From a virus, in IMG/VR virus record IMGVR_UViG_3300030104_002421, positions 1 through 64,000 of that record: a stretch of 64,000 nt of DNA. The stretch is one strand, 5' to 3'. Below are positions 6,007-64,000 of this stretch, piece by piece; position 1 is the stretch's first letter; each line of letters starts with the position of its first letter. Below the pieces are notes generated by a model. That model was not told where the DNA came from. It was given only the letters and a program-made list of their open reading frames with translations, and did not search any database. A program made the position numbers and the translations under genes.

Positions 6007-9000
6007 ATGGCAAAATTTACTAAAAAAATAAATCCACTAATAAGTAGGCAATTTCCAGCACACATACAGGCTAATAATCCTTTATTGGTTGAGTTCGTAA
6101 AACAATATTATGTGTTTATGGATTCTGCTCAGATTACAATATCAAGTGTAACTGCTTCAGACCAAATCTTATTAGAAACAACTACAGAAGGATTTATTTC
6201 TTTAAACGCCACAGACGAACATGGTAATAATGAAAACGATTATATACTTAATGAACAAACAAGTGTAGGTGAGTTTAGTAAAGGTGAAACTATTACTGGT
6301 GCCACTTCAGGTCAAACGGCAACTATACTTGCTGAAGATACAGACAACTTAAAAATATGGGTTACTGCTAATTCGTTATTTGTAACAGGTGAAACTATTA
6401 CTGGTGGTACTTCTGGTGCAACTGGTGTAATAGGAAAATATCGTGCAAACCCAAATGAAACAATCAATCAACTATTAGAATATGCCAATGTCAATAATAC
6501 TATAGATGATTTTTTTACAGAATTTAGAAATACATTTTTACAAACTATACCTAACACACTTACAGATGGTTTAGATAAAAGACAACTTACAAAAAATATT
6601 ATAGACCTTTACAAAAGAAAAGGTACAAAAAAAGGACATGAGATTTTCTTCCGTGCCTTGTTTAATGAAACACCTGAAATTTATTACCCAACTGTTGATA
6701 TGCTTAGAATATCAGACGGTAATTTTAATAATCAACAAATAATAAAAGCAACATTAAACGGACCTTCTGATGGTAACATGAACAACTTGGTTGGTCAAAC
6801 AATTACACAAACAGATATTGTAGGTAATGATACAGTAGATACAGCAAGTTCAGTTATTGAAAGTGCAACTGTTTCAACTGTAAGTTTAAATGGCATAGCA
6901 CATGATGTGGCAACTTTTATTTTAAATGAAGCGTCAACTACAGGCACTTTTGCCAGTAATGCAGGCGACGCCATACTATTAGATGGTACAGATAGTTCTG
7001 AAACAGACGCTGGTGATGAAATACTACTAGATGGTACAGATACTTCATCTACAAATGCAGGTGATAGGGTAGTTCAAAATACAAAAGCAACTTTTGCAGG
7101 TGCAGATAATACAAATGCTGATGTAACTATAACATGTGATATTGAAAGTGTTGTTGATGATGTTAATGTTACAACTCCTGGTCAATATTATACTGTAGGT
7201 GAAACTTTTGCCTTTACAAAAGAAAAAGGTGGTACTGGTGCAATAGGACAAATAGAAAATGTATCATATGGTGTAATAGATAGTGTACAAGTAGAAAGTG
7301 GTGGGTCAGGTTATGCAGTAGGTGATGTCCTTTCAGTAACTAATCCTACAGACGGTACAGGTCTTGCAGGTACTGTTGCCGTAGTCAACGGTGGTTTTAC
7401 TTTAGAAGGTGATGTACATGATGATGGCGTAATTATTTTAGAAGACGGTACAGACTTTCAACTTGTTATGGAACCAGGCACAAATGGTGGTGGTAGTCCA
7501 ACAAATGATATTACAAAAATTAGATTAACAAATAAGGGTGGTGGGTATCTTTCACTACCAACTGTTAGTGTTACAAGTACAGGTGGTTCAAGTGCAACTT
7601 TATATGCTGTTTCATCAACTGTTGGTAATGCATTATCAGTTAAGATGGTTGACCATGGGTTTAGATATGAGACACCACCAGAAGTTAGTCCTAAATTACA
7701 TTTACAAATAGATACTGTTTCTGCTGGGTTTACAGATGGTGAAACTATTACTGCTTCTAGTGAGGACTTTATAGAATTAGAACCATATGAACAGGTAGAC
7801 TTTACAATTTTACTAGAAGACTTTAGACAAGCAAAAATAAGATTAGAAGATACTGAAAGAGGAGATTTAATTTTAGAAGATGAATTAGGTGGCGGACAAT
7901 TTGCATTAGAAGAATTTGTAACTGACGCTGTACCTGAAAGTCCTTTCCCTGATAGTTTATTATTAGATGGTACTGATGGTTCAAGTACAGACGCCGGCGA
8001 TAGAGTAAGATTTAACGAATATATTTTAAAAGATAATACAGATTATATTATATTAAATGGTACAGATGGTTCAAGTACAAATGCAGGTGGTAAAATACAA
8101 AGAGACGATACTGTTACTGCTTCTGCTGTATTTGAAGAATTTGATACAGATACAAATATAATAACATTAACATCACCAACTGCCTCTTATGATGACAAGG
8201 TTACTATTTTAGGAAATACCTCAGGTACAACTGCTAGAGTAAGAAACTTTAATACTGATACACCACAAGCAACTATGACTGCTACAGTAGGTACAGCAAT
8301 AGAAACAGATGGTGCATATTCTGGTGTTGATGGATTTATTTCAGAAAGTACAAAGAAGATACAAGATAGTTTATACTACCAAGATTACTCTTACATTATA
8401 AAAGTAGGTGAAAGTATTTCAGAATGGAGAGACTATCTAAAATCTGCCGTGCATCCTGCTGGGTTCTACTTTGCAGGTGAGGTGAGTATTAGAACAAGAG
8501 TAAATGCAAAAATGAAAACTGGATATACTAGACTTTCAGGTCTTACGGAATCTGATGAAGTGGTCGAAATACTATCTGTTATCTTTGCAGAAAAGATTGG
8601 AAGAAAACTTGGTACTGTGGATGATGGTTCAAGTGAAAGAACAAATCCACATCTTGGTATTGAAGCAAGTGCTTCATTTACTAGCAATAGTAGGGCAGTA
8701 ACATTAGAACATGAGACTACTCTTAAACTAAATCAACAAAGAGATAGTGGTCAACAAGTTCATTCAACTAGTGTAACAACAGGATTTGTTTATGCAGGTG
8801 CAAGACTAAATACAATTGGTGATATGCCATTTACAGCATTTGGTAATGCAGTAGAAGGTGGTGGAGGTATGAGTGGTATTACACTTGCAACTCTACACGC
8901 AATAAAACTTACTGGAACAGGTAATTCAACTATTGGTGCTGCCGCTATTCAAGTAGGTGATTTTGATTTACCACTAGGTACTAGATTTGCAATACCAACA

Positions 9001-58802: not shown

Positions 58803-60059
58803 ATGGAAAAGAAAATTGACCCGCTATTAGAAGAGCAATGGGAGGTATTTCAAAAAGAAAACCCAAGTGCGACATTTCGACACATAGATGAGACAAAACT
58901 AAAAGATAACTTAACAAAAGAATTATCTTATGCTGCCAATATGTCAGTAGAAGAATATACACTATATCAAAAATGGTGTGAAGTTAAAAACAAATATCCT
59001 GCTCAAGTAGTAAACACATTGTTTGGCGAAGAAAGTCAATTAGTAGATTTATCAAAAGACAAATTATTAGTACATGTTAAAAACAATATATGGGCACCTA
59101 AAGACCCTATGGATTTTGAGAAGTTAGAACCAGAACTAATCTATACAAAAGATGACCCTAGTTACCCACAATTGTGGAATGCAATAAGAACATTTGCCTC
59201 TACAATGAAGAACAATAACAATATAGGTCGTAATTTAAACTTTATAGTAAGAGACAAACCAACAAAGAAATATCTAGGTGTCATTTGTATATCAAGTGAT
59301 TTTTTAGATTTAACACCTAGAGATAATTACATAGGTTGGGATAGAGAAAGAAAAACTAAAAAGATGATTAATCATACTGCTATTGGTAGTACGATTGTTC
59401 CATTACAACCACTAGGTTTTAATTATACTGGTGGTAAGTTACTGGCATTATTATGTCTATCTGATAAAGTACAAGAAACATGGAAAAAAGAATATGGTGA
59501 TACAATGGTTGGTGTTACAACAACAAGTCTCTATGGTAGTTTTAGTCAGTATCAAAATCTAAAATACTGGAAGAAAAGAGGTCATAGTGCAGGTAGTGTA
59601 TCATATGAAGCAACGAAACCTACAATACAAATGTTAAGAGATTGGTTAAAAGAAAATCATACTAGAAAATTCTTTGAATGGTATAGTGCTACAAAACCTA
59701 CAGGACAACCTTATAAGAGAGACCATAGAAATAGAAGTCATACATTTGCTTATGGTAAACTAGGTATACCTAAAGAAATTACAAAGTCAGCACATAGTAG
59801 AGGTATCTATTTCAGTACACTATACGACAATACATGTGAGTTTTTAAGAGAAGAAATAGAAGAAGATAAACTAAAGAAATCATTTGATAGTAGTATTGAA
59901 GGACTTGTAAATGTATGGAAGAACAAGTATGCTAGTAAGCGTATAAAATCGCTGATTAACCAATCTAGGACAAACATGGAATCACTTTATTATGATGACT
60001 TGATACATCTATCATGGGAAGAAACAAAAAATAAGTATCTAAAACAAGTAGGAAGATGA
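58803..60059 (+). CDS. DUF4338/DruA-like protein (predicted GNAT-type fold)
   Basis: GRNLNFIVRD...LGVICISSD...RDNYIGW...PLQP...GGKLLALL...TTSLYG..SQY. Confidence 0.75.
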   Translation: MEKKIDPLLEEQWEVFQKENPSATFRHIDETKLKDNLTKELSYAANMSVEEYTLYQKWCEVKNKYPAQVVNTLFGEESQLVDLSKDKLLVHVKNNIWAPKDPMDFEKLEPELIYTKDDPSYPQLWNAIRTFASTMKNNNNIGRNLNFIVRDKPTKKYLGVICISSDFLDLTPRDNYIGWDRERKTKKMINHTAIGSTIVPLQPLGFNYTGGKLLALLCLSDKVQETWKKEYGDTMVGVTTTSLYGSFSQYQNLKYWKKRGHSAGSVSYEATKPTIQMLRDWLKENHTRKFFEWYSATKPTGQPYKRDHRNRSHTFAYGKLGIPKEITKSAHSRGIYFSTLYDNTCEFLREEIEEDKLKKSFDSSIEGLVNVWKNKYASKRIKSLINQSRTNMESLYYDDLIHLSWEETKNKYLKQVGR

Positions 60060-62672: not shown

Positions 62673-63866
62673 ATGAAACTAAATGATAAACAAAAAACAT
62701 TTGTTGAGACTGCTTTCAAGGAGTTTGGTACAGATACCATTACTAGAAAACAAGTCCAAGAAATTGAGACTAAATTTAACTTAACTGGTAACAGTTGGTT
62801 AGTAAATTCAGGAGACTACAAAGTGGGTCGTGGCGTATATAAATTACCTGTTAACGGTATGGTTAACCCCTCTAAAAATGTTAAACAGAATTTAAAACCT
62901 AAACCAGTTATTGAACAACCACAAGAAAAGGTTACTCTACAATCTACTGAAAGTACCGCTGATAACTTGGTACCTTCTAAAGAGGCGACCTTTGTATCTT
63001 TTGGTAACTACAAAGATATTAAGAATATTGTTAAATCAAAAATCTTTTATCCTACTTTTATTACTGGTTTATCTGGTAACGGTAAAACTTTAAATATAAT
63101 ACAAAGTTGTGCTGAGTTAAAAAGAGAATTAATTAGAGTTAATATAACAGTTGAAACAGACGAAGACGATTTACTTGGTGGTTTCAGACTTGTAAATGGT
63201 GCAACAGTATGGCATGATGGTCCTGTTGTTGACGCTATGAAAAGAGGCGCTGTTCTATTATTAGACGAAATTGATTTAGCGTCTAATAAGATTATGTGTT
63301 TACAACCAATACTTGAAGGCAACGGTGTCTTCCTTAAAAAGATTGGTAAATTTATAGAACCACAACCTGGTTTTAATATCATTGCTACTGCCAATACTAA
63401 AGGTAAAGGTAGTGATGACGGAAGATTTATTGGTACTAATATACTCAATGAAGCATTCCTTGAAAGATTTCCTGTTACTTTTGAGCAACAGTATCCTCCA
63501 ATTAAAGTAGAGCAAAAAATACTTGAAAATGTTATGGATGCTTATAACTTAAAAGATAGTAAATTTACAGAAAACCTAGTTAAATGGGCAGATGTAATTA
63601 GAAAAACTTTTTATGATGGCGGTGTTGATGAAATAATCGCTACTAGAAGACTAGTACATATCATTAATGCTTATGCAATCTTTAAGAACAAATTAAAATC
63701 TGTTCAAGTATGTGTAAACAGATTTGATGATGATACTAAAAACAGTTTCCTAGATTTGTATTCTAAAGTGGACTCAGGAGTTGACCTAGAAGACTTATCA
63801 GGAAATATCAATGATGATGAGATAATAATGGAGAAGGAAGTTGATCCAATCAACCAACCAATCTAG
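62673..63866 (+). CDS. cobS: CobS-like MoxR AAA+ ATPase
   Basis: GLSGNGKT; ETDEDDLLGGFRL; LLDEID; ATANTKG; NEAFLERF. Confidence 0.9.
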   Translation: MKLNDKQKTFVETAFKEFGTDTITRKQVQEIETKFNLTGNSWLVNSGDYKVGRGVYKLPVNGMVNPSKNVKQNLKPKPVIEQPQEKVTLQSTESTADNLVPSKEATFVSFGNYKDIKNIVKSKIFYPTFITGLSGNGKTLNIIQSCAELKRELIRVNITVETDEDDLLGGFRLVNGATVWHDGPVVDAMKRGAVLLLDEIDLASNKIMCLQPILEGNGVFLKKIGKFIEPQPGFNIIATANTKGKGSDDGRFIGTNILNEAFLERFPVTFEQQYPPIKVEQKILENVMDAYNLKDSKFTENLVKWADVIRKTFYDGGVDEIIATRRLVHIINAYAIFKNKLKSVQVCVNRFDDDTKNSFLDLYSKVDSGVDLEDLSGNINDDEIIMEKEVDPINQPI

Positions 63867-63897
63867 TATGAAATTCATTCATAATGTAGACCTCGTA

Positions 63898-63930
63898 GGT
63901 GGCGGATTTCATAAACCCGCCACCGTTTGT
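63898..63930 (+). terminator. GC-rich hairpin after cobS (terminator or processing signal)
   Basis: GGTGGCGG...CCGCCACC followed by GTTTGTT. Confidence 0.55.
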
Positions 63931-63940
63931 TCTACTTTGA

Positions 63941-64000
63941 GCGGGTTAAGTATAAAAGTAATACGCTTTGCTACCAGTAAAGAGAACTTTGGGCAGTACA
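63941..64000 (+). tRNA. Non-canonical tRNA-Gly(ACC)-like gene, 3' end cut by window
   Basis: GCGGGTT acceptor 5' strand; D stem GTAT/ATAC; anticodon stem CTTTG/TAAAG with loop CT-ACC-AG; T stem CTTTG, 7-nt loop, then CA. Confidence 0.7.

What the first reader, a model, noticed from the sequence alone, without database searches (positions are those of the whole stretch)
63941..64000. Non-canonical tRNA-Gly(ACC): possible dedicated glycyl donor for DNA modification
Seen: cloverleaf with Gly-type GCGGG start and ACC anticodon (63973-63975), but A at position 8, no GG in the D loop, and T loop GGCAGTA instead of TTCRA. Known: A34 Gly anticodons are essentially absent from bacteria; staphylococcal non-proteinogenic tRNA-Gly species lose these same D/T-loop signatures; Mu Mom has been reported to use Gly-tRNA-Gly to modify adenine. 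Inference: an EF-Tu-evading tRNA supplying the DUF4338 enzyme 4 kb upstream. Alternatives: a GGT decoder for Gly-rich fibres, or an anticodon-nuclease decoy. The 3' end is outside the window.
Basis: partly seen in the sequence, partly recalled or inferred. Interest (0 to 1): 0.8.

Follow-up and report, generated by a model that had tools for sequence, protein, structure and literature searches.

The report
Divergent phage glycine tRNA, anticodon ACC
The window ends inside a real but unusual glycine tRNA gene of a virus that infects the ocean's most abundant bacteria (SAR11); its ACC anticodon is almost unknown in nature, and it most likely helps the virus read GGU, its strongly preferred glycine codon, rather than feeding a DNA-modifying enzyme.

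Summary
Reading past the window edge closes the T stem exactly. It also closes a 7-bp acceptor stem (two G·U pairs), followed by discriminator U and an encoded CCA: a 74-nt cloverleaf at genome 63941-64014.

It is not chance. Twenty-five distinct relatives from marine phage contigs keep 92.7% of pairs, with double compensatory changes in all four helices.

It belongs to a phage-borne tRNA-Gly family. All bacterial GlyRS identity elements are invariant, but the elbow is altered: one G in the D loop and an N-G-C-R-N-U-A T loop. That T loop matches alphaproteobacterial tmRNA and this phage's own tmRNA.

The anticodon is ACC in pelagimyophages (including isolates HTVC008M and Mosig) and UCC or GCC elsewhere. 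It tracks codon usage: GGT is 70% of this phage's glycine codons.

Best reading (~0.65): an elongator tRNA that reads GGU.

The DUF4338/DruA link is not supported by co-occurrence. Two points keep a glycyl-donor role alive at about 10%:
- The DruA-like protein has a GNAT fold, and Mu Mom is nominally its closest solved structure.
- The T stems predict weak EF-Tu binding.

Standard annotation misses this gene.

The parts
63941..64000 (+). First 60 nt of a 74-nt non-canonical tRNA-Gly(ACC) gene. The full gene is genome 63941-64014; the last 14 nt lie beyond the window edge. Layout: acceptor 5' strand 63941-47, D arm 63950-64, anticodon arm 63966-82 with ACC at 63973-75, 4-nt variable loop, T stem 5' strand 63987-91, T loop 63992-98.
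   Evidence: Sequence; cloverleaf MFE; covariation in 9 and in 25 distinct homologues; orthologue called tRNA-Gly(acc) by ARAGORN and Rfam.
63898..63924 (+). G+C-rich hairpin followed by a short U-rich tract, 16 nt before the tRNA 5' end. It is either the terminator of the CobS-like gene or a structured pre-tRNA leader.
   Evidence: Sequence. The stem sequence differs between relatives but always pairs (alignment A9).
63880..63897 (+). Invariant 18-nt block (CATAATGTAGACCTCGTA) directly before the hairpin. It is unique in the genome and found only in the clade where the tRNA precedes the S21 gene. It may be a -10-like promoter element or leader; its function is unexplained.
   Evidence: Identical in 9 of 9 aligned loci although the flanks differ. 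One copy in 146 kb. Absent upstream of family members in other contexts, which instead have TTGACA...TATATT promoters.
62673..63866 (+). CobS-like AAA+ ATPase gene immediately upstream (397 aa).
   Evidence: Pfam AAA_5, E 2.3e-17. Orthologue annotated CobS / porphyrin biosynthesis in HTVC008M.
58803..60059 (+). Residues ~103-362 form a GNAT fold.
   Evidence: Pfam DruA, E 4.4e-20. AlphaFold model pLDDT 88.6. Foldseek top hit Mu Mom 8bv8, E 4e-3. VIA-align Z 9.8, rmsd 4.2 Å, 173 residues aligned, tied with generic GNATs at Z 9.6. No sequence-level PDB match.

Best explanation
This is a functional, phage-encoded glycine tRNA of the T4-phage type: 74 nt, a 7-nt D loop and a 4-nt variable loop.

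Inferred steps:
- It is transcribed with, or just ahead of, the phage ribosomal-protein S21 gene.
- It is trimmed at its ends and charged with glycine by the host GlyRS.
- It is used on the ribosome to read glycine codons.

In pelagimyophages the wobble base has become A, giving ACC. This forms a Watson-Crick pair with GGU, which is by far the phage's commonest glycine codon. Unmodified A34, or I34 if the host TadA accepts it, could also read further GGN codons.

The elbow uses an alternative solution. G19-C56 appears to be kept, while G18/Ψ55 is replaced by A/G. The same solution occurs in alphaproteobacterial tmRNA and in other phage tRNAs.

Shown here: the structure, its conservation, the identity elements, the anticodon/codon-usage match and the distribution. 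Inferred only: charging, EF-Tu delivery and decoding.
For: 1. Structure under selection. All four helices show compensatory changes in 25 distinct sequences. The anticodon and T stems are completely rewritten between the window and HTVC008M, yet still pair.

2. Glycine identity. G1-C72, C2-G71, G3-C70, U73, C35 and C36 are invariant in all 25. These are the determinants of bacterial GlyRS, which barely reads position 34 (PMC9908026).

3. Only Gly anticodons occur: ACC, UCC and GCC. The wobble base stays fixed within groups that have diverged to 55-58% identity, with about 40 of 74 columns variable.

4. The anticodon tracks codon usage.
- In this phage GGT is 69.8% of Gly codons, while Thr and Ala prefer A-ending codons.
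- ACC-bearing contigs average 72% GGT.
- UCC-bearing contigs average 49% GGT and 30% GGA.
- The GCC-bearing contig has 50% G+C.

5. It behaves like an ordinary tRNA gene elsewhere.
- It sits in tRNA clusters of large phages.
- In L094, L123, L138 and Mosig it has its own sigma70-like promoter ending about 8 nt before the 5' end.
- The 3' CCA is encoded in most copies but not all.
- One phage carries two such tRNAs, with GCC and UCC.

6. The T loop GGCAGUA equals that of the phage's own tmRNA and the Rfam alpha_tmRNA consensus GGCgGUA. The variant is therefore compatible with EF-Tu and the ribosome.

7. According to PMC4928997, an engineered E. coli tRNAGly(ACC) is active in elongation.

8. ACC copies occur in both cultured Pelagibacter myophages, HTVC008M and Mosig.
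Against: - The canonical elbow nucleotides are missing (G18, T54, Ψ55, and U8 in this copy).
- The Schrader-Uhlenbeck T-stem model predicts EF-Tu binding of -9.1 kcal/mol for this copy and a family mean of -9.2. Canonical tRNA-Gly in the same contigs score -10.2 to -10.8 and bacterial means are -10.8 to -11.0. The family is thus as weak as, or weaker than, the staphylococcal cell-wall tRNAGly at -9.5.
- In this copy C32-G38 and U33-A37 can pair, and the MFE fold closes the anticodon loop to three bases.
- The link between codon usage and anticodon is confounded by phylogeny. The UCC clade closest to the window still uses 67% GGT.
- There is no expression, charging or decoding data. Metatranscriptome contigs did not cover the tRNA.
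Confidence: 0.65

Rival explanations
1. Specialised glycyl donor. The tRNA is charged by GlyRS and largely escapes EF-Tu. Its glycine is used by a tRNA-dependent GNAT, the DruA/DUF4338-like protein 3.9 kb upstream, to modify DNA or another target, as Mu Mom does. This could be its sole role or a second role beside decoding.
For: - Predicted EF-Tu affinity is at or below the staphylococcal non-proteinogenic level. In 23 of 25 members the 51-63 pair is A-U or U-A, never the strong G-C of typical tRNAGly (model from PMC3239215).
- The DruA-like protein is a GNAT, and Mu Mom ranks first in Foldseek and in VIA-align (Z 9.8, 173 of 202 residues).
- Mom uses Gly-tRNAGly (PMC13219725).
- The two genes are syntenic throughout the HTVC008M-like clade.
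- In two distant phage contigs a canonical tRNA-Gly lies 27 nt after the DruA-like gene.
Against: - A complete phage genome (G003, 176 kb, terminal repeats) has an intact family member but no DruA-like gene, by Pfam model or by a family-specific profile.
- Only the HTVC008M-like loci among 54 DruA-like loci have the non-canonical tRNA within 8 kb. Other DruA-bearing phages carry canonical tRNA-Gly.
- The Mom match is statistically tied with generic acetyltransferases (Z 9.6), and there is no sequence-level match.
- Mom accepts every host isoacceptor, so a dedicated tRNA is not required.
- A pure donor would not need a conserved wobble base that follows codon usage, nor two isoacceptors in one phage.
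- No FemAB or Acetyltransf_6-type transferase is found in the genome.
Confidence: 0.1
2. Defence-hardened replacement tRNA. It still works in translation, but the unusual wobble base, 32-38 pair and elbow were selected because they escape host or competitor tRNA-cleaving nucleases, or tRNA-sensing defences that deplete host tRNAGly during infection.
For: - The same D-loop/T-loop module recurs in unrelated phage tRNAs of other identities. Examples are Streptomyces phage Jay2Jay tRNA-His beside a canonical tRNA-His, and a Gln-anticodon copy in a Firmicute MAG.
- It was found in essentially no cellular genome: one look-alike among 185,579 species.
- Phage tRNAs that evade anticodon nucleases are an established concept (own knowledge, not checked here).
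- An unverified first-reader note reports a Pnk/ligase-like tRNA-repair set in this genome (e1-5903726).
Against: - No nuclease that targets tRNAGly or the elbow is known for SAR11.
- Nothing here tests cleavage.
- The ACC/GGU match is explained more simply by decoding demand.
Confidence: 0.12
3. Cis-acting tRNA-like element. The cloverleaf mainly serves as an RNase P/RNase Z processing or stability signal, or as a translational operator, that shapes the 5' end and expression of the S21 mRNA starting 13 nt downstream. It is not itself used as an adaptor.
For: - It lies 8-17 nt before the S21 start codon in all HTVC008M-like loci.
- An invariant 18-nt block plus a hairpin precede it only in this context.
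- Family members in other phages also sit 5-23 nt before an ORF.
Against: - The same tRNA occurs away from S21: L094, L123, Mosig and tRNA clusters.
- 66 other S21-bearing phage loci have no tRNA nearby.
- A processing signal would not need invariant GlyRS determinants or a Gly-only anticodon.
- Tight spacing is normal in compact T4-like genomes.
Confidence: 0.05
4. A decaying tRNA pseudogene or a chance cloverleaf.
For: ARAGORN and the Rfam tRNA model fail on the window's copy. That copy has A-U-rich stems and A8.
Against: All 21 pairs are intact in the window's copy. There is strong compensatory covariation and invariant identity elements across phages down to 55-58% identity.
Confidence: 0.02

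Closest known systems
Phage T4-type tRNA-Gly(UCC) and its canonical relatives in marine and freshwater T4-like phages (e.g. L217, L173/L198 here)
   Same: Same architecture: 74 nt, 7-nt D loop, 4-nt variable loop, a GCGG(G/A) start, a CCGC-U-CCA end and a UU(N)CCAA anticodon loop. Canonical copies of this architecture were seen directly. The likeness to T4 itself is from memory and was not tested.
   Different: The D loop has A-A-A-A-G-U-A instead of A-A-U-G-G-U-A. The T loop has N-G-C-R-N-U-A instead of U-U-C-G-A-U-U. T-stem pairs are weak. In pelagimyophages the anticodon is ACC instead of UCC.
Staphylococcal non-proteinogenic tRNAGly (glycine donors for FemXAB cell-wall bridges)
   Same: Glycine identity is kept, the D-loop GG and the TΨC signature are lost, and the 49-65/50-64/51-63 pairs are weak. 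Predicted EF-Tu binding is -9.5 kcal/mol for those tRNAs, against -9.1 for this copy and -9.2 for the family mean.
   Different: - No Fem-type transferase in the phage.
- Gly bridges are not, to my knowledge, a feature of alphaproteobacterial cell walls.
- The anticodon varies with codon usage instead of being fixed at UCC.
- The phage encodes no second, 'proteinogenic' tRNAGly of its own.
- Not homologous beyond being tRNAGly.
tRNA-like domain of alphaproteobacterial (two-piece) tmRNA
   Same: The same T-loop variant, GGC(A/G)GUA on a 5-bp stem, is present in the Rfam alpha_tmRNA consensus and in this phage's own tmRNA. That domain is charged, bound by EF-Tu and accepted by the ribosome (established knowledge).
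   Different: tmRNA has alanine identity, no anticodon arm, and needs SmpB. Here the T loop sits in a complete cloverleaf with a Gly anticodon.
Mu Mom with host Gly-tRNAGly (tRNA-dependent N6-carbamoylmethyl-adenine formation)
   Same: It is a phage system that consumes Gly-tRNAGly through a GNAT enzyme (PMC13219725). The DruA-like protein 3.9 kb upstream is a GNAT whose nominal best structural match is Mom.
   Different: - Mom uses any host isoacceptor, and the Mom paper describes no phage tRNA in that role.
- There is no sequence similarity to Mom.
- The structural match is tied with generic GNATs.
- The tRNA family and DruA-like genes do not co-occur outside one clade.
Engineered or mutant tRNAGly(ACC), and natural unmodified-A34 tRNAs (Mycoplasma tRNAThr(AGU), yeast mitochondrial tRNAArg(ACG))
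   Same: They have A at the wobble position of a four-codon box. PMC4928997 reports that a mutated E. coli tRNAGly(ACC) is active in elongation and that GlyRS charging is insensitive to N34. That unmodified A34 reads several third bases is from memory.
   Different: Here ACC is natural, conserved and lineage-wide. Natural tRNAGly(ACC) is described as absent from eukaryotes, and in bacteria A34 is enriched only in tRNAArg.

Membership tests
Bacterial-type tRNA-Gly (substrate of bacterial GlyRS) | Cloverleaf with 7-bp acceptor, 4-bp D, 5-bp anticodon and 5-bp T stems | tested here: met
   MFE fold. 92.7% of cells paired and compensatory changes in all helices across 25 sequences.
Bacterial-type tRNA-Gly (substrate of bacterial GlyRS) | Identity set: U73, G1-C72, C2-G71, G3-C70, C35, C36 | tested here: met
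   All are present in the window copy and invariant in 25 of 25. Determinants taken from PMC9908026.
Bacterial-type tRNA-Gly (substrate of bacterial GlyRS) | Canonical elbow nucleotides (U8, G18-G19, T54-Ψ55-C56, A58) | tested here: not met
   The window copy has A8, a D loop AAAAGUA and a T loop GGCAGUA. One D-loop G and the G-C at T-loop positions 2-3 (nt 55-56) are invariant in the family.
Bacterial-type tRNA-Gly (substrate of bacterial GlyRS) | Recognised by general tRNA models | tested here: inconclusive
   The window copy is not called by ARAGORN or by Rfam RF00005 at E<=10. The HTVC008M orthologue is called by both.
Bacterial-type tRNA-Gly (substrate of bacterial GlyRS) | Is glycylated and decodes GGN on the ribosome | not testable with these tools
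   Indirect only: the anticodon matches 70% GGT usage.
Non-proteinogenic (EF-Tu-evading) tRNAGly of the staphylococcal kind | Weak 49-65/50-64/51-63 pairs predicting poor EF-Tu binding | tested here: met
   -9.1 kcal/mol for the window copy and a family mean of -9.2, against -10.2 to -10.8 for canonical tRNA-Gly in the same contigs. This is a model prediction only.
Non-proteinogenic (EF-Tu-evading) tRNAGly of the staphylococcal kind | A partner aminoacyl-tRNA-dependent transferase (Fem-type) | tested here: not met
   No FemAB or Acetyltransf_6 match in the 99%-complete genome, with positive controls ringing.
Non-proteinogenic (EF-Tu-evading) tRNAGly of the staphylococcal kind | Measured exclusion from EF-Tu and from translation | not testable with these tools
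   Needs binding and polysome assays.
Mom-type tRNA-dependent DNA modification module (tRNA plus GNAT) | A Mom-like GNAT aminoacyltransferase | tested here: inconclusive
   The GNAT fold is clear. Mom ranks first (Z 9.8) but is tied with SpeG-type GNATs (Z 9.6). There is no sequence match.
Mom-type tRNA-dependent DNA modification module (tRNA plus GNAT) | Co-occurrence of the tRNA with the enzyme across phages | tested here: not met
   Only 1 of 5 large tRNA-bearing records has a DruA-like gene, and the complete genome G003 lacks it. DruA-like loci outside the HTVC008M clade lack the non-canonical tRNA.
Mom-type tRNA-dependent DNA modification module (tRNA plus GNAT) | A glycine-derived base in the phage DNA | not testable with these tools
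   Needs nucleoside LC-MS of virion DNA.

The most novel reading that the evidence does not exclude
The pelagimyophage tRNA-Gly(ACC) has two uses. It binds EF-Tu weakly, so a sizeable pool of Gly-tRNA stays free. A Mom-like GNAT (the DruA/DUF4338-like protein) draws on that pool to put a glycine-derived group on phage DNA or another target. This would be the first phage that brings its own tRNA for a non-ribosomal aminoacyl transfer, and it would give the Druantia DruA family a biochemical function.
Probability: 0.1. Interest if true: 0.85.

Novelty: new variant of a known kind. Interest (0 to 1): 0.55.

Why it matters
A natural, conserved tRNA-Gly with A at the wobble position is something tRNA biology treats as essentially non-existent. 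Here it is a lineage-wide feature of myophages that infect SAR11, and it occurs in two cultured, tractable phage-host pairs (HTVC008M and Mosig on HTCC1062). That makes several open questions directly testable:
- How an A34 Gly tRNA decodes.
- Whether bacterial TadA can act outside tRNAArg.
- How far the tRNA elbow can be rewritten while still serving RNase P, the CCA-adding enzyme, EF-Tu and the ribosome.

It also exposes an annotation blind spot. HTVC008M is published as having 0 tRNAs (PMC7029224). The Mosig copy is annotated as a 31-aa hypothetical protein. Many family members are missed by ARAGORN. Phage tRNA counts and tRNA-based host prediction in marine viromes are therefore biased.

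If the minority reading were right, it would link DruA-family proteins to tRNA-dependent chemistry.

Tried and rejected
- **blastn against GenBank phages.** The 86-nt window copy gave only chance-level hits; the query is too short and divergent. Two other family members used as queries were informative.
- **Public RNA runs.** Only Logan contigs were available. A few low-depth, 100%-identical metatranscriptome contigs cover the S21 ORF and the next ORF, and none covers the tRNA. This says nothing about expression or ends of the tRNA, and DNA carry-over cannot be excluded.
- **Host (SAR11) tRNA-Gly T stems and codon usage.** These could not be fetched. The single genome-contig scan went to the family pattern, which returned no alphaproteobacterial locus to use as a handle. 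The EF-Tu baseline is therefore the published bacterial mean, not the host's own.
- **The 18-nt upstream block as a repeated promoter.** Rejected: it occurs once in the genome.
- **The block as an anti-SD mimic sequestering the S21 ribosome-binding site.** Rejected: several loci with the invariant block have no SD at all.
- **Literature.** I found no description of this T/D-loop variant in phage tRNAs, nor of tRNA-Gly(ACC) in phages. The library is partial, so prior description cannot be excluded. The supplement of PMC9004378, which ran ARAGORN on pelagiphages, had no retrievable tRNA-Gly entry.
- **Profile search of the DruA-like family against PDB sequences.** No match.

Full report
**What is there.** The window is the first 64 kb of a 146,188-bp, 99%-complete viral contig. 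The contig is 76% identical over this region to Pelagibacter phage HTVC008M, a T4-like myophage of SAR11.

The finding's coordinates hold the 5' 60 nt of a cloverleaf.
- GCGGG start
- A8
- D loop AAAAGUA
- anticodon loop CUACCAG, with ACC at 63973-63975
- T loop GGCAGUA

Reading on in the genome, AAG completes the T stem. GAUCCGC then closes a 7-bp acceptor stem with two wobble pairs. U is the discriminator and CCA is encoded. The gene is 74 nt (genome 63941-64014), and its minimum-free-energy fold is exactly the cloverleaf.

It lies between a CobS-like ATPase gene and a ribosomal-protein S21 gene. A hairpin separates it from the CobS-like gene, and the S21 ATG is 13 nt after the CCA.

**Is it real?** ARAGORN and Rfam do not call this copy, so comparison was needed.

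HTVC008M has an orthologue in the same place. Its anticodon stem and T stem are rewritten base for base yet still pair. A covariance model built from the two sequences found ten more copies upstream of S21 in IMG/VR contigs. A pattern scan for the D arm found 66 viral loci, all confirmed by the model.

For 25 distinct sequences, 92.7% of cells pair and 14 pairs show double changes. No shuffle out of 500 reaches the observed paired fraction or covariation score, and slid registers drop to 34-49%. This is a structured RNA under selection, not a chance fold or a dead gene.

**What kind of RNA?**
- G1-C72, C2-G71, G3-C70, U73, C35 and C36 are invariant. These are the determinants read by bacterial GlyRS, which hardly contacts position 34 (PMC9908026).
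- The anticodon is always a glycine one: ACC, UCC or GCC.
- The 3' CCA is encoded in most copies but replaced by other bases in some, as in ordinary tRNA genes.
- In large phage contigs the gene sits in tRNA clusters.
- In L094, L123, L138 and phage Mosig it has its own TTGACA/TATATT promoter ending about 8 nt before the mature 5' end.
- Its architecture (7-nt D loop, 4-nt variable loop) matches canonical tRNA-Gly genes in related phages.

It is therefore a tRNA-Gly gene family with a changed elbow. The D loop keeps one G, and the T loop is N-G-C-R-N-U-A.

The commonest T-loop version, GGCAGUA, is not exotic for this host lineage. It is the T loop of the phage's own two-piece tmRNA and of the Rfam alphaproteobacterial tmRNA consensus.

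The same D/T-loop module also occurs with other identities:
- a tRNA-His in Streptomyces phage Jay2Jay, beside a canonical tRNA-His
- a Gln-anticodon copy in a Firmicute MAG, the only true look-alike among 185,579 bacterial and archaeal species genomes

The elbow variant is thus a phage tRNA design and not a glycine-specific device.

**Why ACC?** ACC is found in every HTVC008M-like copy and in the separately isolated Pelagibacter phage Mosig. Together these are twelve distinct sequences, down to 58% identity with 39 of 74 columns variable, yet position 34 never changes. The UCC group behaves likewise.

Codon usage points the same way:
- The phage uses GGT for 69.8% of glycine codons, although it prefers A-ending codons for Thr and Ala.
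- Contigs with ACC average 72% GGT.
- Contigs with UCC average 49% GGT and 30% GGA.
- The contig with GCC has 50% G+C.

The trend is confounded by phylogeny, since the UCC clade nearest the window still uses 67% GGT. Even so, it is what a decoder predicts.

One phage carries two of these tRNAs, with GCC and UCC. That makes sense for reading codons but not for donating glycine.

PMC4928997 reports that natural tRNAGly(ACC) is absent from eukaryotes, that A34 in bacteria is enriched only in tRNAArg, and that an engineered E. coli tRNAGly(ACC) works in elongation.

The cited background is sound. Mom uses Gly-tRNAGly (PMC13219725). Staphylococcal cell-wall tRNAGly have weak T stems (PMC7826273 and PMC3239215).

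Two of my tests favour the idea:
- Applying the published T-stem model gives -9.1 kcal/mol for this copy and -9.2 on average for the family. Canonical tRNA-Gly in the same contigs score -10.2 to -10.8.
- The DruA/DUF4338-like protein (58803-60059) folds with high confidence (pLDDT 88.6) into a GNAT domain. Mu Mom is the nominal top match in Foldseek and VIA-align (Z 9.8, rmsd 4.2 Å, 173 residues), though it is tied with ordinary acetyltransferases at Z 9.6.

- Only one of five large tRNA-bearing phage records has a DruA-like gene.
- A complete 176-kb genome with an intact family member has none, by Pfam model or by a family profile.
- Among 54 DruA-like loci, only the HTVC008M-like ones have this tRNA within 8 kb. 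Other DruA-bearing phages carry canonical tRNA-Gly.
- Mom accepts all host isoacceptors, so no dedicated tRNA is needed.
- No Fem-type transferase is present.

I keep a dual-use or donor role at about 0.1.

**S21 linkage.** The tRNA precedes S21 only in the HTVC008M-like clade.
- ACC copies occur before a peroxiredoxin-like ORF (by eye, not tested) in L094 and before a helicase-like ORF (by eye, not tested) in L123.
- In Mosig the ACC copy lies between the Hsp20 and sliding-clamp genes.
- 66 other S21-bearing phage loci have no tRNA nearby.

Adjacency is therefore synteny, and probably co-transcription, not an obligatory cis-element.

**Novelty.** The published pelagimyophage survey lists HTVC008M with 0 tRNAs and says S21 is not part of a cluster (PMC7029224). 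RefSeq annotates no tRNA there. The Mosig copy is annotated as a hypothetical protein. I found no paper describing this tRNA or its elbow variant, within a partial library.

I class it as a new variant of a known kind: a phage-encoded tRNA with a natural ACC glycine anticodon and an alternative elbow.

**Verdict.**

| Question | Result |
|---|---|
| Observation | confirmed |
| GGU-decoding elongator tRNA-Gly | 0.65 |
| Defence-hardened replacement tRNA | 0.12 |
| Glycyl donor | 0.10 |
| Cis-acting element for S21 | 0.05 |
| Pseudogene or chance | 0.02 |
| Unassigned | remainder |

Noticed in passing
window 63880-63924: An 18-nt block (CATAATGTAGACCTCGTA) is identical in 9 of 9 loci of the S21-context clade and is followed by a hairpin whose stem covaries. 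The block occurs once in the genome and is absent upstream of family members in other contexts. It could be a promoter, a leader or a protein-binding site; its role is unexplained.
   Followed up: partly
window 58803-60059: The DruA/DUF4338-like protein has a confident GNAT fold over residues ~103-362. Phage Mu Mom (8bv8) is the nominal best structural neighbour, tied with generic GNATs. This may be a lead to the biochemical function of Druantia DruA.
   Followed up: partly
genome 117739-118041 (outside the window; L211 232-496): The phage encodes a two-piece (permuted) alphaproteobacterial-type tmRNA with tag ANFNEYALAA. Its T loop, GGCAGUA, is identical to that of the tRNA-Gly.
   Followed up: partly
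genome 141839-141932 (outside the window; L212): ARAGORN calls a 94-nt 'tRNA-Arg(acg)' with a long extra arm and mismatched D stem. Rfam gives no tRNA match at E<=0.01. It is either doubtful or another non-canonical tRNA.
   Followed up: partly
L220 601-674 (Pelagibacter phage Mosig EXVC030M, MT647606.1 about 7779-7852, minus strand): A family member with an ACC anticodon and its own TTGACA/TATATT promoter lies between the Hsp20 and gp45 clamp genes. GenBank annotates the stretch as a 31-aa hypothetical protein (Mosig_000011), and ARAGORN misses it.
   Followed up: yes
L082 2952-3025 and L126 8601-8674 (10 contigs in all): A sub-lineage of the family has an extra base in the anticodon loop (8-nt loop CAUUCCAG, or a 6-bp stem) together with a one-base deletion in the 5' T-stem strand. 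It is conserved across 10 contigs. It could be a frameshift-prone or otherwise specialised tRNA, or a decaying one.
   Followed up: no
L221 294-367 (Streptomyces phage Jay2Jay gene 175) and L152 3501-3574 (Acutalibacteraceae MAG): The same D-loop/T-loop module (AAAAGUA / GGCAGUA) occurs in a tRNA-His(GUG) next to a canonical tRNA-His(GUG), and in a UUG-anticodon tRNA in a gut Firmicute MAG. The altered elbow is a recurrent phage tRNA design across very different hosts.
   Followed up: partly
L216 and L219 (record G007, 150 kb): One DruA-bearing phage encodes two non-canonical tRNA-Gly genes, GCC and UCC, and the covariance-model search found no canonical one in that record.
   Followed up: partly
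L173 and L198, 9299-9372: In two distant T4-like phage contigs a canonical tRNA-Gly(UCC) starts 27 nt after the stop of the DruA-like gene.
   Followed up: no
L103 6926-6999 and L080 582-657: Other tRNAs in large marine phage tRNA clusters also carry G at T-loop position 55: Asp(GUC) with T loop GGCAGCA and Phe(GAA) with AGCGUAA. ARAGORN misses the Asp one.
   Followed up: no
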